Numbered from the stretch's first letter, positions 18,022 through 37,424 are shown. The stretch: 38,955 nt of DNA from a virus (IMGVR_UViG_2939127364_000004), one strand, 5' to 3'. Notes: generated by a model not told the origin, from the sequence alone. Made by a program: numbers and translations.

Positions 18022-18610
18022 TTTTCCTCACATATGTCATATAGTAAAGGATTATATATACCGTTGTTTTGGACGCTCAAACAGCGAATCAGATCAAATA
18101 AAACGCACATTTGTTAACATTTACACAAAGTCTGCGTGGGATATTCTGAAAGAATATCCATAATGTGGAGAGAATCTATTGAAGTGCATGGTGCCGGGTG
18201 CCTCCCGGTGAACAAAATGTTCGTGATACCTGTCGGCGACAGAAAAGGTTAATGGTATCACCCCACCGCACAGGGGGATTCACCATGCAGGAGTTTTCTT
18301 AGCAAACTCACTGCGCGCCCGGCAACTCCCAACCACATAAAATGCGGAGTTTGTGGTATTTATGCATATAACTCGCAGGAATTATCTTAAAAAACTGATG
18401 TCGATCCGGATTAAAAAGAAGCAGGTCATCATCAGATGACTGGAAAAAAGGAAAACAAAAAATACTCATCATACAGTTTTGATTGCAGGGATGAGCCTGC
18501 TATGCACAATATGCAGAATATAAGCAAGATAAAAATATGCAGGCATATTATTTCGGATTTTGTTATTAACACAACCTTTTTAATAATCATTTGGCATACA
18601 ATAAACCAGC

Positions 18611-20767: not shown

Positions 20768-20854
20768 ATGGAAAACAACAAATCTGCACATTACGCTCCT
20801 TTTTTATCTGTAATACTTTTTGTTTTTTGCTGTGTATGGGCATTATTTTTATAA
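20768..20854 (+). CDS. Candidate 28-aa hydrophobic small protein (MENNKSAHYAPFLSVILFVFCCVWALFL), not in ORF track
   Basis: ATG 20768 preceded by AAGGTGAG SD at 7-nt spacing; possible sigma70 promoter TTATGC-17-ATAATA about 50 bp upstream; single predicted TM helix; convergent with hokD. Confidence 0.3.
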   Translation: MENNKSAHYAPFLSVILFVFCCVWALFL

Positions 20855-20962
20855 AAATATTCACAGATAAAATAAACTCGCCGAATCAGGTTAAGTGTGG
20901 GTGCGTTGAGGATGCCTGACACATCAGAGGCGGCGAGGGATTTCTCCCTCGCCTAGTCACTC

Positions 20963-21118
20963 TTACTCCTCAGGTTCGTAAGCTGTGAAGACAGCGACCT
21001 CCGTCTGACCGGTTCGGATTCGCACCTCGCAGAGGTCTTTCCTCGTTACCAGTGCCGTCACTATGACGGTTAAACAGATGACAATCAGTGCGACTAACAT
21101 CGCCTTTTGCTGCTTCAT
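20963..21118 (-). CDS. hokD: Hok/Gef-family type I toxin HokD (51 aa)
   Basis: MKQQKAMLVALIVICLTVIVTALVTRKDLCEVRIRTGQTEVAVFTAYEPEE; stable GGCGAGGGA-tttc-TCCCTCGCC hairpin 10 nt past the stop at 20932-20953. Confidence 0.85.
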   Translation of the reverse strand: MKQQKAMLVALIVICLTVIVTALVTRKDLCEVRIRTGQTEVAVFTAYEPEE

Positions 21119-21838
21119 AGCCTGCTTCTCCTTGCCTTCCGGCGCGTAAGAGGCTAACCTACATGTGCAAAGCATGAAATTGGCCTCAGATTAATGTTAA
21201 GCGTCTTGCCGGACGCGTAATGTTATCTGGGGCTTTTCTCTATCTGCCTTTGGTGTTCATGCCTGAGGCAGATAGCCTCAAGCACCCGCAGCAATTCTAC
21301 TTAACTCCCGTCACCTCGCCAATATAAAATCAATCAGAAAGGCGATCCATAAGAACAACAGCAAGACAATAAATTGCCATTACAGCCGCAATAGCTAGCG
21401 CACATTTGAGAACCAGCACGACAACCTCCTGTATTGGACGTACACCAGTTCTGATAAATATGAGGCTGTCTCATCATTGATTCAATATAACTATTGGGTA
21501 TAGTTTCTGTGATTTTGTTCTGTAGAAATGGAACACAACAACCAGTCACCACCAGCACTTCTTTAAATACGCCAAGTCCGACGCAAGCTAACCTTCTAGT
21601 CCGCTTTGAGCGAGGAGCGGACCAAACCCGGCCAACTGACTCTTAAAGGGGCCGCAGGAATTTTTCGTCTGAACTTTCGAAGCTCCTCTCCCTGAAGACA
21701 GAAAACTTCTGTGTGCTGTGGGAATATTGAATCTTTGCCTTAGATATAAATAATTTTATCCCGCCTGAAGTTTACATTATTTTATTTATCTGTTTTTCTA
21801 AATCAGACTGCACTCCTTACTTAAATCAGGAGCCAGTC

Positions 21839-23038
21839 ATGCCATTTGTTATTTATGTGTTTACTATCAGTGCCTTTGCGCTCGGACTCGCGGAATTTGT
21901 CCCCATTGGGCTGACAGACGTTATGGCTCAGGGGTTGTGTGTGGGTGTGGAGCAGACCGGGGCAGCGGTTACAACCTATGCACTGGGGGCAACGTTCGCG
22001 GCACCCGTACTGTCTGCGCTGACAGCAAGCTGGAGCCGGAAAAATGTAATGCTTACAACTGCCGTTGTGTTTACTGCCGGTAGTCTGGCGGCCGCGTTTG
22101 CAGCCACATTACCTCAGCTCCTGTTAGCGCGGTTCATTGCTGGTCTGGGACACGGCCTGTTTCTGGCTGCGGCATCCAGTACCGCAGCTCGTCTTGCTGG
22201 ACCGGGTAAAGCAGGCAGAGCGGTGGCTGTGGTATTTGGTGGCTTTACTCTGGCGATGGCAATCGGCGTACCGCTGAGTACATGGTTGGGGGGGGTGGTC
22301 TCATGGCGTCCAGTTCTCGGCGCTATTGCCGCTTTTGGCGCGTTCGGATTCCTTGGACTGTTGTTCGGTATGAAAGATCCCGTACGCAGCGTGCCCGGTG
22401 AACATAGTGACTCAGCAATGCAGAATATCGGCATGCTGTTTAACCGTAAGTTGCTGGCCGGCGCGCTGGTTACGGTGCTGGCGTATGCAGGCTCGTTTAC
22501 GGATTACACCTTTATCGCACCTATTCTGACGCAGGTGACAGGGGTTACCGGAGCAACGGTGAGTCTGTTTATGCTGGTTTACGGTATTACAGCTGCGGTA
22601 GGTAATATTCTTGGTGGGAAACTTACCGACAGCATGGGGGTTAATCGTGCCAATATACTCATCATTAGCGGCATTGTTGTTGTCGTGCTTGGTATGTGGC
22701 TGCTGTCATCCTCACCGGTGAGCATGGGCATTCTGGTTGCGCTGCTGGGTATGGTGACATTTGCCGCAGTGCCGGCACTGCAGGCCCGTCTGATTGGTGT
22801 CGCTGAGCAACATGCTCCTCATGCGCATGGTGTTGCTGCCGGCCTGAATATTGCGGGCTTCAACTCAGGTATAGCGCTGGGATCAGTACTGGGCAGCATT
22901 ACTATAAGCCACGCCGGTATCGTGTATACCGGTATCAGCGGTGCGATTGTTTCTCTGCTCGGCCTGCTGTTGCTGCTTGCACAAATCCGTCGCAGCCACA
23001 GTCGTAAATTTCAACAGGTTAAAATCGTAGGCCAGTAA
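21839..23038 (+). CDS. MFS transporter (12-TM, 399 aa)
   Basis: AGGAG SD; hydrophobic 12-helix pattern, Gly/Ala-rich, central cytoplasmic loop. Confidence 0.8.
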   Translation: MPFVIYVFTISAFALGLAEFVPIGLTDVMAQGLCVGVEQTGAAVTTYALGATFAAPVLSALTASWSRKNVMLTTAVVFTAGSLAAAFAATLPQLLLARFIAGLGHGLFLAAASSTAARLAGPGKAGRAVAVVFGGFTLAMAIGVPLSTWLGGVVSWRPVLGAIAAFGAFGFLGLLFGMKDPVRSVPGEHSDSAMQNIGMLFNRKLLAGALVTVLAYAGSFTDYTFIAPILTQVTGVTGATVSLFMLVYGITAAVGNILGGKLTDSMGVNRANILIISGIVVVVLGMWLLSSSPVSMGILVALLGMVTFAAVPALQARLIGVAEQHAPHAHGVAAGLNIAGFNSGIALGSVLGSITISHAGIVYTGISGAIVSLLGLLLLLAQIRRSHSRKFQQVKIVGQ

Positions 23039-23049
23039 AGGGAGGTTAT

Positions 23050-23742
23050 ATGCTTACCCGTGAAAATATGCTTAATGGCACATTTGTCAGGGTGCATGAA
23101 GCGCTGCTCCCGGCGAATATGCTCTGGGACGCTGAAAAAATACGCGCATCAATGAACTCTACTCTGGAGGAGCGCCCGACGGGTGCTCCTGTCTGGATAT
23201 TTGCCTACGGGTCATTGATGTGGAATCCCGTGCTGGCGATTGAAGAAATGCAACGGGCCCGTCTGAAAGGATGGCAGCGCAGTTTCTGCATTCGTTTGAT
23301 ATCCGGACGAGCGACTCCTGATGTCCCCGGCAGGATGTTATCGCTCGACGAAGGTGGAATTACCGAAGGTATTGCGTTCAGACTGCCGGAATCGACTCTT
23401 ATTAATGAGCTGGAAATTGTCTGGACGCGCGAGATGATAACCGGTCTTTACCGTCCGGTCTGGGCAGACGTTTCGCTAGGAAACGGTGAGGAAATTCAGG
23501 CGCTGGCTTTCGTATCAGACAGACTGCATCCGCATTATGAACAGGACAATCTTACAGCGACCGTAGCGTTGAGCATCGCATCTGCCCGTGGAGACATTGG
23601 CACGAATGCAGATTATGTATGGAAACTGCAGGCCACTCTGGGTGCGTTGGGAATACGGGATGATTACGTGAGTGAACTGGCCCTTGCTCTGCATGAGGCT
23701 CCCTGTAACGATAAACTTCATCAGCGAGGCGCTTCACTATGA
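23050..23742 (+). CDS. ChaC-family gamma-glutamylcyclotransferase-like protein
   Basis: GGAGG SD; WIFAYGSLMWNP (YGSL motif) and overall similarity to ChaC; 230 aa. Confidence 0.7.
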   Translation: MLTRENMLNGTFVRVHEALLPANMLWDAEKIRASMNSTLEERPTGAPVWIFAYGSLMWNPVLAIEEMQRARLKGWQRSFCIRLISGRATPDVPGRMLSLDEGGITEGIAFRLPESTLINELEIVWTREMITGLYRPVWADVSLGNGEEIQALAFVSDRLHPHYEQDNLTATVALSIASARGDIGTNADYVWKLQATLGALGIRDDYVSELALALHEAPCNDKLHQRGASL

Positions 23743-24620
23743 GCCATCTGAGCCATCTGCGAACGTTTCTTGAGGCCTATCGCTCTGGCTCCTTTTCAAA
23801 GGCGGCAGAACTACTGGGCATCACTCAGCCCGCGGCGTCACAGCATATCCAGTCTCTTGAGACTCTGGTTGGTAAGCGTCTGTTTATCAGGCAGGCCAGA
23901 GGCGTGACGGCAACCGAAGCTGCGGATGAGCTTGCCCGCTCAGTTTCACCCTTCATTGATGGTCTGGAAGAAAAGCTGTCCTCTTTCCGGTCAGGCTCTG
24001 TACGCGGGGGAACAATTAATCTGGCAGGACCGCCAGATTTTATTCATTCCCGGCTTGGGACAGTAATGGCTCCACTAATGAAGGAGGGGTATCGCCTACG
24101 CTTTCATACCGGCAATAAGCAACGTATTTATTCCCTTTTGCATGACGGGAGCGCCGATCTCGCTGTTACCGCATCTATGCCTGATGACCGTCTGTACGGC
24201 TATGCACATCTACTGACTGAACGCATGCTCCTTGTTCATGCTCCCGCCATGTCAGAGATCATCGGATCAGAACCTGGTGCTGAAACGCTTGCCTCATTAC
24301 CGCTGATTGCTTATGACGAAGAGTTGCCACTGATTAGAGCGCTCTGGGCCTCCATGTTTCAGAGAGCCCCTGAGATGCAGGCTACATTCACCATTCCGGA
24401 TTTACGTATTATCCGCGACTTGGTCTGTGACGGCCACGGGTGGACAGTGCTGCCGGATTATCACTGTGACAATGACCTGAAAAGTGGTCGCCTGATTTCA
24501 GTGACACCTGCAGACCTCGCTCCGACTAATCATCTTTATCTGGTCTGGAACAAAAGGACGGCTAATAACAGCCGAACCGCCTATGTTCGGGATTACATTC
24601 TTAAAACGTTTCCGCGTTGA
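23739..24620 (+). CDS. LysR-type transcriptional regulator
   Basis: N-terminal HTH LRTFLEAYRSGSFSKAAELLGITQPAASQHIQSLE; start overlaps ChaC stop (ATGA). Confidence 0.85.
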   Translation: MSHLSHLRTFLEAYRSGSFSKAAELLGITQPAASQHIQSLETLVGKRLFIRQARGVTATEAADELARSVSPFIDGLEEKLSSFRSGSVRGGTINLAGPPDFIHSRLGTVMAPLMKEGYRLRFHTGNKQRIYSLLHDGSADLAVTASMPDDRLYGYAHLLTERMLLVHAPAMSEIIGSEPGAETLASLPLIAYDEELPLIRALWASMFQRAPEMQATFTIPDLRIIRDLVCDGHGWTVLPDYHCDNDLKSGRLISVTPADLAPTNHLYLVWNKRTANNSRTAYVRDYILKTFPR

Positions 24621-24750
24621 TGTTTGAAACGGATGATTGGCGATGCGTATCATAAGTTACGTATGTCCGCTTCTGGCACAAAGCAGACGCCCACTCTCAC
24701 GCGAATGCTTTGCCCTTGACTTGCCAACAACCGTATCGCTTGCTCCGCAA

Positions 24751-26043
24751 CTATGGTTTTTTATTAGAATCTTCGCCACTAAATAAATTATAATAAATTG
24801 ATTTTATTAGATATCTGTCAGAATCTATATGGTCAGCACGAGTAGCATGCTCTAATGTTTCAAATGCTAGGGTTTGTGCGGCTTCAGCAAAAATTCCAGG
24901 CCAACCCTTACTCAGCATCGACAGTCCTTTAAGTACCCTTATCTGAATTTCCCTCATACTGGCACCATCGCGCGCAACAGGTGAGAAAAAGTCTTCAAGT
25001 AGATCGTTATTCTGAAGTGGTGCAACATGTACAGAAGGATATTTCACTTCTATTTCATCAGATTTATTCTGCGCGTAAGCGGAAAGTATACGTACACCTC
25101 TGCCAATGACATCAATGGCGGTTCCTGGATCGTTCACTGCGGGGGAAAGGGCTCGGCAGGCTATTTCGGCCATGACGCTAAGACAAAATCGGGGGTCCTG
25201 AGCAAATGAACGTACATCCGAGACAATAATCGTCTCAAGTAAATCGGTGCTGATTGATGACTCCTGGCCCTGACTCAGGTACAAAACTGGCGTGGACGGA
25301 TGTATGAAACTGCCCGGCTGCGCCACGAGGTATACATGACGGGGATCATTGGTCAGCAGCTTGCTGAGTTTCACCATATCAACATATTCAACATAGCCAA
25401 TCTTTTTCGGATAAACTGCAACCGTTCCTTTCGGCTGTTCATTGTTCTCAAGCCATGGATATCCGCCGAGACAGGGATTTCTTGCTCTCGCAATAAATGT
25501 TTCGATGGCCGCCTGTTCTACTTTTGCCGTTGTCTCACCAACCCTCCCCAGAGAGGTCAAATGCTGTATCCAGCGAAGCAATGTGATGAGGATTAAGGCA
25601 ATGACAACCAGTGTTACAATGAATAAAATGACTCTCCCCCTTTCTCCATAAGCTCCCATATTGAGGGCAATAATCCCTACCAGACTGAAGAGAAAAGAAC
25701 CGATGAAGGTGGCCAGTACATTTTGTGTGGTGACGTCTTCAACAACTAAACGAGTAGCTCTGGGAGTCACATTAGTAGTGGCTGAACCGTAGGCTGTGAC
25801 CATGATGCTCAGCGAAAATGTGGTCACTGCCAGCATACTCGATGCCAGTATGTTCAGAATGTTATCGACTGCTTCCGCACCAACCTTCACGGAAACCGAC
25901 TCAGGTATCATTGATTTAAAAAGAATTGATAAAAGGGCCGTTATTATTGCGACAATTGCGAATAACGTTGCCCTGAACCATAGTTTTTTAAATGTCTGCT
26001 TCAGCATCCATTTCCAGCGTGAAATCATTCTGCATTCCCTCAT
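24751..26043 (-). CDS. DUF2254-family membrane protein (N-terminal TM domain plus soluble C-terminal domain)
   Basis: 430-aa ORF with 4-5 N-terminal TM helices; family from recollection; alternative start at 26028 has better SD. Confidence 0.5.
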   Translation of the reverse strand: MRECRMISRWKWMLKQTFKKLWFRATLFAIVAIITALLSILFKSMIPESVSVKVGAEAVDNILNILASSMLAVTTFSLSIMVTAYGSATTNVTPRATRLVVEDVTTQNVLATFIGSFLFSLVGIIALNMGAYGERGRVILFIVTLVVIALILITLLRWIQHLTSLGRVGETTAKVEQAAIETFIARARNPCLGGYPWLENNEQPKGTVAVYPKKIGYVEYVDMVKLSKLLTNDPRHVYLVAQPGSFIHPSTPVLYLSQGQESSISTDLLETIIVSDVRSFAQDPRFCLSVMAEIACRALSPAVNDPGTAIDVIGRGVRILSAYAQNKSDEIEVKYPSVHVAPLQNNDLLEDFFSPVARDGASMREIQIRVLKGLSMLSKGWPGIFAEAAQTLAFETLEHATRADHIDSDRYLIKSIYYNLFSGEDSNKKP

Positions 26044-26063
26044 ATTGCAGCCGGGATAAATAA

Positions 26064-26084
26064 ATGCCGCCTCTGTGGCGGCAT
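26064..26084 (-). terminator. Intrinsic terminator downstream of BCCT transporter gene
   Basis: Minus strand ATGCCGCC-acaga-GGCGGCAT followed by TTATTTAT. Confidence 0.5.
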
Positions 26085-26091
26085 GTTGCTG

Positions 26092-28095
26092 TTAACGAAC
26101 CAGATGCAGGAAGTGCAGGTGTTTTTCGTACTGGTCCAGTATGTCATTAATCAGCTGTTCCTGATTCCAGCCCATTACATCATAATTTTGGCCGCCCTCT
26201 TTGAGATAGACTTCAGCGCGATAATATCGATGTTGTTCACTCTGCTGCTCATCATTATCCAGCGCAGCGAGCGCGAAGGTCGGTGAGTTATACCCGCGAA
26301 GCCTCACTTCATATATATAATTCAGCTCGTTGCCCAAATCGACTTCAAGGCGAATACGATCCTCGGCGGCGTCACTGATGTGGCTTATCGTTCCCTGCTT
26401 GTTAAGTTCCTCCTGAACCAGCGTCATGGCGGGTTGGATAATGTCGTCCATAAAACGTTTCACAAGAGAGCGCTTCGGCAAATACGCGATATTGCGTAAC
26501 CTTCTCTGCCAGGGAATTGGGTTACGTGCAGCCGTAGGAGCAATAGTCGCCATGCTAAGGCTTTCACGCTTGGTCAAATCCCGACGCAGGGCTTTTAACA
26601 GTCCGTATATGGATATTAATAAGATAACTGAGAAGGGCAATGCACTCGCTATCGTTACGGTTTGCAACGCACTCAGCCCCCCTGCGATCAGCAGGGCAAT
26701 AGCAACAACGCCCATGAGCGATGCCCAGAAAATTCGCTGCCAGACGGGCGTGTTTGCCACCCCACCTGATGCCAGAGTATCCACAACCATTGCCCCCGAA
26801 TCAGCAGACGTTACAAAGAAGACGATGACCATCGCCATTGCAATGAATGACAGCACGGAAGAGAACGGGAAATGCTCCAGGAAATTAAACAGGGCAAGCG
26901 CAACATCCTGCTGAACGGTATTGGCGAGGTCAGTGGCGCCCTGGTTCATGATGAGATAGATGGCGCTGTTTCCAAACACCGTCATCCACATGAGCGTAAA
27001 GCCGGCGGGAACAAACAACACGCCAGTCACGAACTCACGAATTGTCCTGCCGCGGGAAACGCGTGCAATGAACATACCTACAAACGGCGACCATGAAAGC
27101 CACCATCCCCAGTATAATAATGTCCAGCCCCCCAGCCAGTTGCTCGACTTGGGTTCATACGCGTAAAGGTTGAACGTTTTACTCACCAGTTCCGACAGAT
27201 AACCACCCGTATTTTCCACAAATGACTTCAGCAGAAGCACAGTGGGACCCAGGCACAAGACCAGCGCCAGGAGCAACACCGCCAGGCCCAGATTAAGCTC
27301 AGACAGGATGCGTATTCCCTTGTCCAGGCCGGACACCACCGAAATCGTCGCTAACCCCGTGATGACCACGATCAAAATGACCTGTACCGTTTCATTGATG
27401 GGCACGCCGAAAAGATGGTTCAAACCGGCATTCACCTGCAATACACCGTAACCCAGCGATGTTGCAACGCCAAAGACAGTGCCTATCACGGCGAAGATAT
27501 CAACCGCGTGGCCTATAGGCCCGTAAATGCGATCGCCGATAATGGGATAGAGCGCAGAACGCAGCGTTAAAGGCAGACCGTGACGGTAACTGAAAAAGGC
27601 CAGAATCAGCGCCACGATGGCATAAATTGCCCATGCGTGCAGACCCCAGTGGAAGAACGTCAGGCGCATGGCTTCCTTCGCTGCCGCAACGGTCTCTGGA
27701 GTGCCGACAGGTGGCGAAAGATAATGCATCACAGGTTCGGCAACGCCAAAGAACATCAGGCCGATCCCCATCCCTGCCGAAAAAAGCATCGCGAACCAGG
27801 AGTGGTAGCTGAAATCAGGCTGCGCATGGTCTGGGCCCAGCTTTATATCACCGTAACGTGAGAGTCCAAGGAACGTGACGCTCAGTAAAATCAGGGCCAC
27901 AGCAAGTATGTAGAACCAGCTGGCATTCGTGAAGATTTGTTGCTGAAGTAGTTTAAAATTTTTGTCGGCGACATCCGGGAATACGGCGGCAAAGGCGACA
28001 AGAAGGAAAATTAGCAAAGCAGATGTAAAGAATACCGCTTTGTTAATCTGGCTTGTAGACTTCTTTGGGGTTGTATCATTTTCACTCATAATCAT
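26092..28095 (-). CDS. BCCT-family transporter, BetT-like (667 aa with long cytoplasmic C-terminal tail)
   Basis: Conserved BCCT blocks (WTLLYWGWWLSWSPFVGMFIARVSRGRTIREF); length and C-terminal extension as in choline transporter BetT but sequence clearly distinct from E. coli BetT. Confidence 0.85.
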   Translation of the reverse strand: MIMSENDTTPKKSTSQINKAVFFTSALLIFLLVAFAAVFPDVADKNFKLLQQQIFTNASWFYILAVALILLSVTFLGLSRYGDIKLGPDHAQPDFSYHSWFAMLFSAGMGIGLMFFGVAEPVMHYLSPPVGTPETVAAAKEAMRLTFFHWGLHAWAIYAIVALILAFFSYRHGLPLTLRSALYPIIGDRIYGPIGHAVDIFAVIGTVFGVATSLGYGVLQVNAGLNHLFGVPINETVQVILIVVITGLATISVVSGLDKGIRILSELNLGLAVLLLALVLCLGPTVLLLKSFVENTGGYLSELVSKTFNLYAYEPKSSNWLGGWTLLYWGWWLSWSPFVGMFIARVSRGRTIREFVTGVLFVPAGFTLMWMTVFGNSAIYLIMNQGATDLANTVQQDVALALFNFLEHFPFSSVLSFIAMAMVIVFFVTSADSGAMVVDTLASGGVANTPVWQRIFWASLMGVVAIALLIAGGLSALQTVTIASALPFSVILLISIYGLLKALRRDLTKRESLSMATIAPTAARNPIPWQRRLRNIAYLPKRSLVKRFMDDIIQPAMTLVQEELNKQGTISHISDAAEDRIRLEVDLGNELNYIYEVRLRGYNSPTFALAALDNDEQQSEQHRYYRAEVYLKEGGQNYDVMGWNQEQLINDILDQYEKHLHFLHLVR

Positions 28096-28892: not shown

Positions 28893-29963
28893 TTACCCCC
28901 TGAAGCCCGGCGGAATTTCGTTATCCGGTTCAGAAATATGATTCACACAACGCTGGTTGTTCGTGCCGCTTACCGGGAGCAACCAGGGGTTCTCAAAATT
29001 CCGGTCCGGTCCAAAAAACGTCGTCGCTCGCTGAACAAATTCCGTTCCCGTTTTCCCGGTAGCCGCCAAGTATCTTGCGTAACGCCTCACGCCATCCAGC
29101 ATGGCCTCTGGTGGCACCCCCTCGCGTAATCTGGCCTTCCAGGCACTGAAAGCGGATTTCTTCGGGTTTGCCCCAGCACGCAACGGGTACTCCCGCCAGA
29201 CCTGTTCGAACACATCCGGATAATCCACTCGTCCCACAGACTGCCCGGTGTTTTCCGGGACTACCCGATCGGCTTCCCGCTGAATGGCGGAATCGGCTTC
29301 AGGCTGCTGCAGTTGGTGTGATTGCTCCGCCCTTGCGGTCATCACCTGCTGCACAGCGCCCGAATCGGCTTTCAGCGCATACGCTGAATCGGCTTCCGGT
29401 GTCGTGCCTGCTGGCTGACCAAGATTGACGGTCTGAACATCCCCTGCCTGGTTCGTGGCGTTTTTTACGCCATGGACCATAGTGTTTTGATCTTCTTGAT
29501 CTGTATCTTTATCTGTATCTTTATCTGTCGTGACTCGTCGTGACATGTGCGTGACATTTCGTGACGCGCCGTGACAATCGCCATTTTGTTCCCGCTTTCT
29601 TTCCCTCTCTCGCTGCGCCCTCTTGCGCTCTGCAGGAGATTTTGCGGTTTGCGAAATATTGCCGTTGTCCTCTTTAAGCACCTGGCGTTTTTCCCATCCA
29701 GTGATTAAATCACCATCAAGTACCCGCCCCTGCATCGTCTGCAAAATTGAATCAATTACCTCTTCTGTCACGTCGAGCGCACTTGCCAAATCTTCTGTCG
29801 TGACATCAATGTGACCTCGCGTGACATTTCGTGACGCGCTCACCAGGAGGTGGATATACACTGCCATCACTGTTGCAATTGGCTGTCCTGACACCCTGGC
29901 AATTGTTCGCCACTTAGGGTCATTTGGCATGTCATGCCATAATCTGAGCCAGGCGTTAGCCAT
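28893..29963 (-). CDS. Lambda O-like replication initiator with internal origin iterons
   Basis: ATG 29963 (AGAGGTGA SD); two GTGAC iteron clusters inside the coding sequence; synteny after cro/cII-like genes. Confidence 0.6.
   Translation of the reverse strand: MANAWLRLWHDMPNDPKWRTIARVSGQPIATVMAVYIHLLVSASRNVTRGHIDVTTEDLASALDVTEEVIDSILQTMQGRVLDGDLITGWEKRQVLKEDNGNISQTAKSPAERKRAQRERERKREQNGDCHGASRNVTHMSRRVTTDKDTDKDTDQEDQNTMVHGVKNATNQAGDVQTVNLGQPAGTTPEADSAYALKADSGAVQQVMTARAEQSHQLQQPEADSAIQREADRVVPENTGQSVGRVDYPDVFEQVWREYPLRAGANPKKSAFSAWKARLREGVPPEAMLDGVRRYARYLAATGKTGTEFVQRATTFFGPDRNFENPWLLPVSGTNNQRCVNHISEPDNEIPPGFRG
29500..29575. repeat. Origin-like iteron cluster 1: 12-bp direct repeat TCTGTATCTTTA x2.5 followed by five GTGAC repeats at 10-11 bp spacing
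   Basis: GTGAC at 29530, 29540, 29551, 29561, 29571. Confidence 0.6.
29800..29839. repeat. Origin-like iteron cluster 2: four GTGAC repeats at 10-11 bp spacing; contains a 20-bp exact copy of part of cluster 1
   Basis: GTGAC at 29800, 29811, 29821, 29831; CGTGACATTTCGTGACGCGC present at 29550-29569 and 29820-29839. Confidence 0.6.
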
Positions 29964-30034
29964 ACTCACCTCTTTTGATACCGAATCTTTTTACTCACAA
30001 ATTGCCGGAAGTGATCCGGTATGAATATTGCGAG

Positions 30035-37027: not shown

Positions 37028-37222
37028 ATGAGATATGACAATGTTAAACCATGTCCATTTTGTGGTTGTCCATCAGTAACGGTGAAAGCCATTTCAGGAT
37101 ATTACCGAGCGAAGTGTAACGGATGCGAATCCCGAACCGGTTATGGTGGAAGTGAAAAAGAAGCACTCGAAAGATGGAATAAACGAACCACTGGAAATAA
37201 TAATGGAGGTGTTCATGTATAA
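37028..37222 (+). CDS. ralR: Restriction alleviation protein RalR/Lar (64 aa)
   Basis: MRYDNVKPCPFCGCPSVTVKAISGYYRAKCNGCESRTGYGGSEKEALERWNKRTTGNNNGGVHV. Confidence 0.8.
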   Translation: MRYDNVKPCPFCGCPSVTVKAISGYYRAKCNGCESRTGYGGSEKEALERWNKRTTGNNNGGVHV

Positions 37223-37424
37223 AATTACCGCCACTATTGAAAAGGAAGGTGGCACTCCTACTAACTGGACAAGATATTCAAAATCTAAACTAACGAAATC
37301 AGAATGCGAAAAAATGCTCTCAGGTAAAAAAGAAGCAGGCGTTTCCAGAGAGCAGAAAGTAAAACTGATAAATTTTAATTGCGAGAAACTTCAGTCCTCG
37401 AGAATTGCATTGTATTCAAATTAA
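37215..37424 (+). CDS. ydaC: YdaC/RcbA-like small protein (69 aa)
   Basis: ATG 37215 with GGAGGTG SD overlapping ralR 3' end; position before xis. Confidence 0.5.
   Translation: MYKITATIEKEGGTPTNWTRYSKSKLTKSECEKMLSGKKEAGVSREQKVKLINFNCEKLQSSRIALYSN

What the first reader, a model, noticed from the sequence alone, without database searches (positions are those of the whole stretch)
29500..29839. Replication initiator gene contains two iteron clusters and an internal duplication
Inside the O-like gene there are five plus four GTGAC repeats at helical (10-11 bp) spacing in two clusters about 270 bp apart, preceded by 12-bp direct repeats. A 20-bp segment is exactly duplicated between the clusters, and the encoded protein has a corresponding duplicated VT-rich segment. 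This looks like an ori with duplicated iteron arrays, which could affect initiator binding and copy control.
Basis: seen in the sequence. Interest (0 to 1): 0.45.

Follow-up and report, generated by a model that had tools for sequence, protein, structure and literature searches.

The report
Two-part replication origin inside initiator gene
The two GTGAC repeat clusters are real and are most likely the binding sites of a prophage replication origin built into the initiator's own gene, a two-array layout that is ancestral to a widespread, unstudied initiator family and not a local duplication.

Summary
The window has 5 + 4 GTGAC copies at 10-11 bp spacing, three 12-bp repeats and an exact 21-bp repeat. 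No simulated 39-kb sequence reached a chain of 4.

The gene (28893-29963, minus strand) lies in a Rac-like E. coli prophage. It is not a lambda O homologue. Its N-terminal domain is a winged helix whose best structural match is DnaD-NTD, and it scores below threshold for Pfam Phage_rep_org_N.

In 50 homologous loci from several phyla, most carry the same layout. Array A lies in the winged-helix coding region. Array B lies in the linker, followed by an AT- and purine-rich (GATAAA/GATACA)n tract.

The iteron differs between lineages (GTCACG, GTAACG, CGAACGC) but is always the same in both arrays of one gene. It falls in all three reading frames. Codons overlapping it are frozen at synonymous sites (relative entropy 0.06 versus 0.80).

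So both arrays are DNA elements under selection. Array B plus the AT tract is probably the core origin. Array A is auxiliary, because some lineages lack it. The "duplication" reading is wrong. Binding and origin activity remain untested.

The parts
28893..29963 (-). Replication initiator gene (356 aa from the ATG at 29963; an alternative GTG start lies at 29969). PGAP calls it 'hypothetical protein'.
   Evidence: ORF list. RefSeq annotation of the 100% identical locus. phrog_3729 'replication initiation protein', E=2e-257. No Pfam family at E<0.01.
29799..29836 (-). Iteron array A. Four direct copies of (T)GTCAC(G) on the coding strand, at gene nt 135, 145, 155 and 166. It encodes aa 45-57 (ASRNVTRGHIDVT), which is the end of helix 3 plus the loop before the helix-turn-helix.
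   Evidence: reading frames 1, 2, 0, 2. Same positions in all class I homologues. Codons frozen at synonymous sites. Secondary structure from the model.
29767..29772 (+). Single inverted iteron copy (GTCACG as read on the + strand). It encodes the D66-V67-T68 turn of the helix-turn-helix.
   Evidence: Present at gene nt 199 in nearly all class I homologues. The V67 codon is GTG in 20 of 20 sequences.
29529..29576 (-). Iteron array B. Five direct copies of TGTCACG on the coding strand (gene nt 395-440). It encodes the disordered linker CHGASRNVTHMSRRVT.
   Evidence: Reading frames 0, 1, 2, 1, 2. Three to seven copies of the lineage's own iteron at the same place in about 44 of 50 homologues. 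pLDDT below 50 from residue 133.
29477..29528 (-). AT-rich, purine-rich tract (GATAAAGATACA)x2-GATCAAGAAGATCAAAAC on the coding strand, encoding DKDTDKDTDQEDQN. Proposed DNA unwinding element.
   Evidence: GC minimum of the gene, 0.30-0.375. An equivalent tract follows array B in all 42 loci scored: AT 0.69 versus 0.45 for the gene, Wilcoxon p=4.5e-13. The 12-bp unit is present two or three times among E. coli prophages.
29449..29479 (.). Imperfect 13-bp-arm palindrome just beyond the AT tract. Whether it belongs to the origin is uncertain.
   Evidence: Inverted repeat I8 and terminator-like hit. The number of such hits equals chance expectation, and it lies in the variable part of the gene, so the evidence is weak.
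29670..29963 (-). Coding region of the winged-helix N-terminal domain (aa 3-100), the presumed iteron reader.
29583..29663 (-). Coding region of the basic segment and helix (aa 103-129). Apart from the array-A-encoded loop, it is the only N-domain segment whose sequence separates the iteron classes.
   Evidence: Helix 112-129 in the model. Class-discriminating alignment columns 103-119.
28896..28952 (-). Coding region of the C-terminal tail RCVNHISEPDNEIPPGFRG, a near copy of the extreme C-terminus of host primosomal protein DnaT.
   Evidence: NCBIfam DnaT positions 156-179. PDB 6aep, 2ru8 and 9zbt_D. Also shared with K-12 YdaU.

Best explanation
The two GTGAC clusters are the iterons of the prophage's replication origin, written into the coding sequence of the initiator that reads them.

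Shown:
- Both arrays, the single inverted copy and the adjacent AT-rich tract are conserved DNA elements under selection at the nucleotide level.
- They are inherited together with the initiator's N-terminal winged-helix domain.
- The iteron sequence differs between lineages but is always the same in both arrays of one gene.

Inferred:
- Initiator monomers bind head to tail, one per helical turn (7-bp core, 10-11 bp pitch).
- Array B (five copies) lies next to the (GATAAA/GATACA)n tract, which melts and becomes the helicase entry site. This is the core origin, laid out like ori-lambda or SPP1 oriL.
- Array A (four direct copies plus one inverted, about 230 bp upstream, inside the winged-helix coding region) is an auxiliary array for the same protein. 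Most likely it raises local occupancy and cooperates with array B in one nucleoprotein complex. It might also throttle transcription of the gene.
- No P, DnaC or DnaB gene follows this initiator. Helicase delivery is therefore inferred to go through the C-terminal domain and its DnaT-like tail, using host factors.
For: Periodicity far beyond chance.

The motif occupies all three reading frames, so it is not a peptide repeat.

Pseudomonas phage P7869 has a 69.5% identical N-domain, an unrelated C-domain and a primase-helicase partner. It carries the same arrays at the same codons.

Among 50 genome loci, 34 strictly have three or more copies of the same 5-mer in both arrays, and about 40 do by eye. 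Lineages use GTCACG, GTAACG or CGAACGC, always matched between arrays A and B. The array B motif occurs 3.30 times in the locus's own array A region, against 0.22 times in array A regions of loci with a different motif.

Synonymous freeze: relative codon entropy is 0.056 versus 0.80 in class I (22 sequences, p=4e-7) and 0.145 versus 0.73 in class III (p=9e-6).

Spacing is 10 bp in 103 cases and 11 bp in 30.

An AT-rich, purine-rich tract follows array B in all 42 loci scored.

Indels come in 7-codon (21-bp, two-iteron) units.

The N-domain is a winged helix whose best match is DnaD-NTD, and it also resembles RepA_N initiators, which bind iterons (PMC7145576).

SPP1 gp38 binds direct repeats inside its own gene next to an AT-rich unwinding element (PMC6316719).

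The same gene occurs in phages deposited as isolates, such as vB_EcoS-689R5 and Evi.
Against: There are no binding, footprinting or origin-mapping data for any member of this family in the literature searched.

The window's prophage is a defective Rac-like remnant with an intR pseudogene, so activity here is uncertain.

Array A is missing in about 5-9 of 50 homologues, so it is not essential to the family.

The gap between arrays A and B varies from 211 to 319 bp in class I without strict helical phasing. This gives no positive support for a fixed loop.

The helix-turn-helix helices do not differ between iteron classes, so the reading head has not been identified.
Confidence: 0.75

Rival explanations
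1. Array B plus the AT tract is the origin, but array A is a negative control element rather than part of the initiation complex. Initiator bound inside its own coding region would block RNA polymerase (autoregulation of synthesis and of transcription through the origin). Alternatively it would pair with array B or with sister copies, as the incA and incC iterons do in P1 and F plasmids.
For: Array A is dispensable in some lineages (L041, L049, L056, L057). It lies about 135 nt into the gene, upstream of array B in the direction of transcription. The gap between arrays has no strict helical phasing. Two-cluster control is established for iteron plasmids (my own knowledge).
Against: Nothing separates this from an enhancer role in silico. 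Lambdoid lytic replication has no obvious need for copy control. Array A has the same orientation and pitch as array B, as expected for one co-operative assembly.
Confidence: 0.2
2. The repeats are real protein-binding arrays, but the functional origin is elsewhere in the prophage. The arrays would serve only regulation or partition-like functions, or be bound by another protein such as DUF977, the YdaT-like protein or a host factor.
For: There is no experimental mapping.
Against: The arrays travel with the initiator N-domain across hosts and across different neighbouring genes: lambda-P-like, DnaC-like, DnaB-like, primase-helicase or none. An AT-rich tract always abuts array B. No other periodic array exists in the 39-kb window. 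The layout matches ori-lambda and SPP1 oriL (PMC6316719).
Confidence: 0.08
3. The repeats are a by-product of coding: a repeated VT/SR-rich peptide, or a recent internal duplication or gene conversion, with no function as DNA.
For: The exact 21-bp identity and the duplicated ASRNVT peptide.
Against: The motif is read in frames 0, 1 and 2 (as CH, SR and VT). Synonymous sites in iteron codons are frozen while other conserved codons are near saturation. The layout is conserved across phyla with lineage-specific iterons. L041 lost array A and its loop sequence drifted, yet it keeps seven array B iterons.
Confidence: 0.02

Closest known systems
ori-lambda inside gene O of phage lambda (and the Stx-phage variants with six iterons)
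   Same: The origin lies inside the initiator gene, in the region coding the linker between the origin-binding N-domain and the helicase-recruiting C-domain. Iterons are followed by an AT-rich, purine-rich tract that encodes a K/D/T/E-rich peptide. Extra iterons add residues to the protein (PMC7466680). The gene follows cro and cII in the rightward operon.
   Different: There is no sequence homology to O (E=0.079, low-complexity only; no Phage_rep_O hit). Lambda has four 18-bp iterons at 20-24 bp pitch; these have dyad symmetry (my own knowledge), whereas here there is a 7-bp asymmetric core at 10-11 bp pitch. Lambda has one array, and here there are two. No P gene follows.
Phage replisome organizers of Gram-positive phages (SPP1 gp38 with oriL and oriR; Pfam PF09681 Phage_rep_org_N)
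   Same: The initiator binds direct repeats placed inside its own gene, next to an AT-rich unwinding element. SPP1 has a second set of the same repeats elsewhere (oriR) (PMC6316719). NCBI names relatives of the window protein 'phage replisome organizer'. The near-full-length Pfam alignment is sub-threshold.
   Different: The Pfam score of 15.6 bits is below the 23.3-bit cut-off. The second array is about 230 bp away inside the same gene, not about 13 kb away. The hosts are Proteobacteria, Acidobacteria and others.
RepA_N plasmid and satellite initiators (pSK41 and pTZ2162 RepA, Vibrio PLE RepA) and DnaD-NTD
   Different: There is no RepA_N Pfam hit. [quoted passage not shown] DnaD-NTD itself does not bind DNA (PMC7145576).
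Two-cluster iteron replicons (P1 incC/incA, mini-F incB/incC, P4 ori/crr)
   Same: Two separate arrays of the same iteron lie in or around the initiator gene. One is at the origin and one is auxiliary or regulatory (my own knowledge, not tested here).
   Different: Those arrays flank the gene or lie kilobases away. Their iterons are 19-22 bp (8 bp in P4). The initiators are unrelated.
oriJ / ydaU of the E. coli K-12 Rac prophage
   Same: Same prophage type and same gene slot (racR-ydaS-ydaT-initiator). Rac is reported to have an active origin, oriJ (PMC3945230). ydaU carries its own TGTTCAA-type repeats followed by GATACAGATAAAGAT, and it has the same C-terminal IPPGFRG tail.
   Different: YdaU has a DUF1376 N-domain that is not homologous to the window's, has different repeats, and is followed by the DnaC-like ydaV.

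Membership tests
Lambda O / ori-lambda type | N-terminal domain homologous to lambda O (Pfam Phage_rep_O) | tested here: not met
   No Pfam hit. BLASTP against lambda O gives E=0.079, restricted to the low-complexity linker.
Lambda O / ori-lambda type | Iterons inside the initiator gene followed by an AT-rich tract | tested here: met
   Array B at 29529-29576, then the AT-rich tract at 29477-29528. Compared with the lambda annotation and sequence.
Lambda O / ori-lambda type | Iterons of about 18 bp with dyad symmetry at 20-24 bp pitch | tested here: not met
   The core is 7 bp and asymmetric, with 10 or 11 bp pitch.
Phage replisome organizer (PF09681 Phage_rep_org_N) | Score at or above the Pfam gathering cut-off | tested here: not met
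   15.6 bits against a 23.3-bit cut-off, E=0.017. The alignment nevertheless spans residues 7-125 and model positions 1-119 of 121, which suggests a distant relative at most.
Phage replisome organizer (PF09681 Phage_rep_org_N) | DnaD-NTD-like winged-helix N-domain | tested here: met
Phage replisome organizer (PF09681 Phage_rep_org_N) | Origin repeats within its own gene plus an AT-rich unwinding element | tested here: met
   The SPP1 precedent is described in PMC6316719.
Iteron-type origin (general) | Three or more direct repeats in helical phase, beyond chance | tested here: met
   Chains of 5 and 4 copies. Simulated sequences reach at most 3.
Iteron-type origin (general) | Repeats selected as DNA and co-varying with the initiator's DNA-binding domain | tested here: met
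   Synonymous freeze. Class-matched arrays.
Iteron-type origin (general) | Initiator binds the repeats, and the segment supports replication | not testable with these tools
   This needs EMSA or footprinting and an origin-cloning assay. No such data were found.
RepA_N initiators | RepA_N Pfam domain and semi-palindromic iterons around a poly-A tract | tested here: not met
PHROG 3729 'replication initiation protein' | Full-length profile match | tested here: met
   E=2.2e-257, residues 3-358 against profile positions 1-356 of 356.

The most novel reading that the evidence does not exclude
This initiator family runs a self-contained, bipartite intragenic origin, and the iteron 'language' has switched several times (GTCACG, GTAACG, CGAACGC). 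Each switch was fixed together in two arrays and in the peptide segments those arrays encode. Array A, inside the winged-helix coding region, would act as a built-in sensor: initiator bound there blocks or loops its own gene, coupling initiator synthesis to origin occupancy. The DnaT-tail mimic would let the phage load host DnaB through the restart primosome with no P- or DnaC-type loader of its own.
Probability: 0.15. Interest if true: 0.7.

Novelty: new variant of a known kind. Interest (0 to 1): 0.5.

Why it matters
The 2.1-kb segment holding this initiator gene and its neighbours is at least 80% covered in 1,561 of 5,426 complete E. coli genomes. The N-domain family has 2,252 representatives at 50% identity. 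Yet RefSeq calls the gene 'hypothetical' and no origin is annotated.

The comparative signature found here gives a sequence-only way to annotate the origin and its specificity class in thousands of prophages. That signature is two class-matched arrays, frozen synonymous sites and a (GATAAA)n tract.

It also offers a natural set of orthogonal initiator-iteron pairs, and a clean system to ask what a second intragenic array contributes.

It illustrates how strongly a cis-element can dictate protein sequence: SRNVT, CH and VT motifs, and 7-residue indels.

In practical terms, cloned arrays could interfere with phage replication. This is an untested idea by analogy with cloned phage origins (my own knowledge). 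Derepression of such defective prophages could fire an extra chromosomal origin, as reported for oriJ in K-12 Rac.

Tried and rejected
- Lambda O homology: none.
- Pfam on the whole protein: empty. With relaxed thresholds only a sub-threshold Phage_rep_org_N match appeared.
- A profile of the N-domain against PDB sequences: no hit.
- The viral-contig scan returned only near-identical E. coli copies. It was useful for population variants but not for diversity.
- Idea that the array-A-encoded loop is the specificity determinant ('the iteron encodes its own reader'). This is weakened by L041, which keeps seven CGAACGC iterons in array B although array A is lost and the loop has drifted.
- Idea that phages Evi and Tritos show a recombination junction exactly at array B. 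Rejected: they carry the same full-length gene, and the apparent 1-144 coverage was low-complexity masking. The module boundary at the AT tract is instead seen against Shigella phage 75/02 gp15, where similarity starts at about aa 160.
- The promoter and terminator scan gave chance-level counts.
- Rfam: nothing in the gene.
- Literature searches for this iteron or family found nothing specific.
- The cryo-EM paper on DnaT does not say what the extreme C-terminal tail contacts.

Full report
**The observation**

The + strand carries CGTGAC at 29529, 29539, 29550, 29560 and 29570. It carries CGTGAC at 29799, 29820 and 29830, with TGTGAC at 29810. Spacing is 10 or 11 bp throughout.

Three 12-bp repeats lie at 29494-29529. 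The segments 29549-29569 and 29819-29839 are identical over 21 bp.

In the whole 38,955-bp window these are the only chains of four or more of any 5-mer at 10/11-bp pitch. In 300 first-order Markov simulations the longest chain was 2 or 3.

**Where it sits**

The window is 100% identical to E. coli chromosomes at the Rac attachment region next to ttcA.

The gene order is a lambdoid early-right operon on the minus strand: a cI-like repressor, a YdaS/Cro-like gene, a YdaT/CII-like gene, the 356-aa gene at 28893-29963, and a DUF977 gene. RefSeq annotates the 356-aa gene as 'hypothetical protein'. It matches PHROG 3729, 'replication initiation protein', over its full length (E=2e-257).

No P-, DnaC- or DnaB-type gene follows it, either here or in phage vB_EcoS-689R5, which encodes a 98.6% identical protein.

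**What the protein is**

It has no Pfam family at E<0.01 and no similarity to lambda O.

An AlphaFold2 model of residues 1-165 has a confident core (pLDDT 82-97 for about residues 10-100). The elements are three helices, a loop (48-57), a helix-turn-helix (58-65 and 69-79), a beta-hairpin wing, a basic helix (112-129) and a disordered tail from residue 133.

Array A therefore encodes the end of helix 3 and the loop before the helix-turn-helix. The inverted copy encodes the turn of the helix-turn-helix. Array B and the 12-bp repeats encode the disordered linker.

**Comparative test: is the layout conserved?**

Pseudomonas phage P7869 has an N-domain 69.5% identical to the window's, an unrelated C-domain and a downstream primase-helicase. 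It carries GTCAC at the same gene positions, followed by GATAAAGATACAGAAGAAG:
- gene nt 135, 145, 155 and 166
- an inverted copy at 199
- four copies at 394-424

A scan of one genome per species returned 52 loci. They come from gamma-, beta- and alpha-proteobacteria and from Acidobacteria, plus single metagenome bins labelled Anaerolineaceae, Solirubrobacteraceae and Collinsella.

Every homologue with about 57% or more N-domain identity keeps both GTCAC arrays at the same codons.

More distant homologues have a different hexamer in the same two places. The alternatives are GTAACG, CGAACGC, and CTACGTA-type repeats in array B only. Within any one gene, arrays A and B always use the same motif. 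The array B motif occurs 3.30 times in the gene's own array A region, against 0.22 times in array A regions of genes with a different motif (classes).

The two-array layout is therefore ancestral and evolves in concert. It is not a duplication peculiar to this gene.

**DNA-level selection**

Because the pitch is 10-11 bp, successive copies fall in frames 0, 1 and 2 and are read as CH, SR and VT. A repeated peptide therefore cannot explain them.

In 22 class I genes (mean nucleotide identity 0.69 in the N-terminal coding part), amino-acid-conserved codons that overlap iterons have a relative synonymous entropy of 0.056. Other conserved codons score 0.80 (p=4e-7). For example:
- V49 is GTC in 22 of 22 sequences.
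- T50 is ACG in 22 of 22.
- G52-H53 are GGT-CAC in 22 of 22.
- V67 is GTG in 20 of 20.

In nine class III genes the values are 0.145 versus 0.73 (p=9e-6).

Indels in both arrays come in 7-codon (21-bp, two-iteron) units. Copy number ranges from 3 to 6 per array in loci that have both, and L041 has 7 in array B.

Among 80 E. coli prophage copies the 12-bp unit occurs two or three times.

**The AT-rich tract**

In all 42 loci scored, the 40 bp after the last array B iteron are AT-rich (0.69 versus 0.45 for the gene; p=4.5e-13). They are purine-rich on the coding strand, typically (GATAAA)n or (GATACA)n encoding DKDK or DTDT. In the window this tract is the GC minimum of the gene.

The order 'iterons, then AT-rich tract, within the linker-coding part of the initiator gene' is that of ori-lambda and of SPP1 oriL. 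In SPP1, gp38 binds direct repeats inside gene 38 next to an AT-rich unwinding element, and a second repeat set exists at oriR (PMC6316719).

A 13-bp-arm palindrome follows the tract at 29449-29479. It lies in a variable region and such hits occur at chance frequency.

**Core versus auxiliary**

Array B plus the AT tract is found in about 44 of 50 loci. Array A is absent in L041, L049, L056 and L057, and in the low-GC L033, L036 and L048.

L041 keeps seven CGAACGC copies in array B, while its array A is gone and the corresponding loop has drifted (GAIERGVLTN versus NATERGRTQN). This indicates that the DNA dictates the loop sequence and that the loop is not needed to recognise the iteron.

Apart from that loop, the N-domain columns that separate iteron classes lie in the basic segment, residues 103-119.

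The gap between arrays A and B is 227-229 bp in most class I genes but ranges from 211 to 319 bp. No fixed helical phasing is evident.

**Modularity**

The N-domain and its arrays combine with different C-domains and with different downstream partners:
- lambda-P-like (L009, L034)
- DnaC/IstB-like (L023)
- DnaB-like (L038)
- primase-helicase (P7869)
- none (the window)

Shigella phage 75/02 gp15 has an unrelated N-half but is 63% identical to the window protein from about residue 160 onward. That point is just after the AT tract. It is followed by a DnaC-like loader.

The last 19 residues (RCVNHISEPDNEIPPGFRG) nearly copy the C-terminus of host DnaT and of K-12 YdaU.

**Mechanism**

Shown: both arrays and the tract are selected DNA elements tied to the N-domain.

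Inferred: N-domain monomers bind head to tail, one per helical turn. Array B nucleates melting of the adjoining tract. Array A supplies extra co-operative binding or control. The C-domain and tail bring in the host helicase machinery.

No binding or origin-mapping data exist for this family in the literature searched. The prophage in the window is a defective remnant with an intR pseudogene.

**Comparison and novelty**

The kind is known: an iteron origin inside the initiator gene, as in lambda, SPP1 and lactococcal replisome organizers.

This is not a member of the lambda O family, and it is at most a distant relative of Phage_rep_org_N.

The features that were not found described are:
- the second, class-matched array inside the winged-helix coding sequence
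- the short 10-11-bp head-to-tail iterons
- the several iteron 'dialects' within one family

I rate it a new variant of a known kind, of moderate interest. The family is large, with 2,252 representatives at 50% identity at E<=1e-3. It is common in E. coli but unannotated.

Noticed in passing
window 28896-28952 (minus strand): The initiator ends in RCVNHISEPDNEIPPGFRG. This nearly matches the extreme C-terminus of host primosomal protein DnaT (PDB 6aep, 2ru8, 9zbt_D: ...INSVSEPDNHIPPGFRG), of K-12 Rac YdaU and of Shigella phage 75/02 gp15. The tail is kept while N- and C-domains are swapped. It may be a mimic that recruits a host restart-primosome partner, which would fit the absence of a phage P or DnaC gene here.
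   Followed up: partly
window about 20777-28095: A cargo block sits inside the Rac-like prophage, between the DUF977 gene and the DUF1367/DUF1364/DUF1133 late-regulatory genes. It holds a DUF1971 protein, an MFS transporter, a gamma-glutamylcyclotransferase, a LysR regulator, a DUF2254 protein and a 667-aa BCCT (BetT-like) transporter. It is in addition to the usual trkG cargo.
   Followed up: no
window 29449-29479: An imperfect palindrome (TGGTTCGTGGCGT-TTTTT-ACGCCATGGACCA) lies immediately beyond the AT-rich tract. I recall a similar palindrome beyond the AT tract of ori-lambda (memory, not checked here). It lies in the variable part of the gene, and such hits occur at chance frequency.
   Followed up: partly
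L003 5472-5620 (E. coli K-12 ydaU): The non-homologous Rac initiator YdaU (DUF1376) has its own run of GTGTTCAA/GATGTTGAA-type repeats followed by AATAAAGATACAGATAAAGAT. The (GATAAA/GATACA)n tract is therefore shared between unrelated initiator families. It could be both an unwinding element and a recombination joint for module exchange.
   Followed up: partly
L049 and L056 (Serratia MAG, Pantoea), gene nt about 330-380: In these distant homologues array A is absent. Array B consists of (A)CTACGTA repeats that overlap the start of an extra domain inserted after the winged helix (…YVYYVATTDGDVVRVGISRNPWARCKDL…). That domain was not identified.
   Followed up: no
window 37221-37399, 21113-21287, 18132-18318 (all minus strand): Rfam gathering-level hits elsewhere in the prophage: the RalA antitoxin sRNA, a sok-type antitoxin RNA and STnc100.
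   Followed up: no
one search hit list (P0002, P0008, P0010, P0019 and others): Very many database copies of this protein are 'partial' and end at contig edges (for example one cluster with 1,121 members). This suggests that short-read assemblies break inside this gene, probably because several prophages per genome share the N-domain and array module but differ downstream.
   Followed up: no
L008 (E. albertii) and P0019 (E. coli O157): Natural alleles carry a 7-residue insertion (TCHGVSL) in array A, giving six iterons. The window allele carries a 7-residue insertion (VTHMSRR) in array B relative to most relatives. Iteron number therefore changes in two-iteron, frame-preserving steps.
   Followed up: partly
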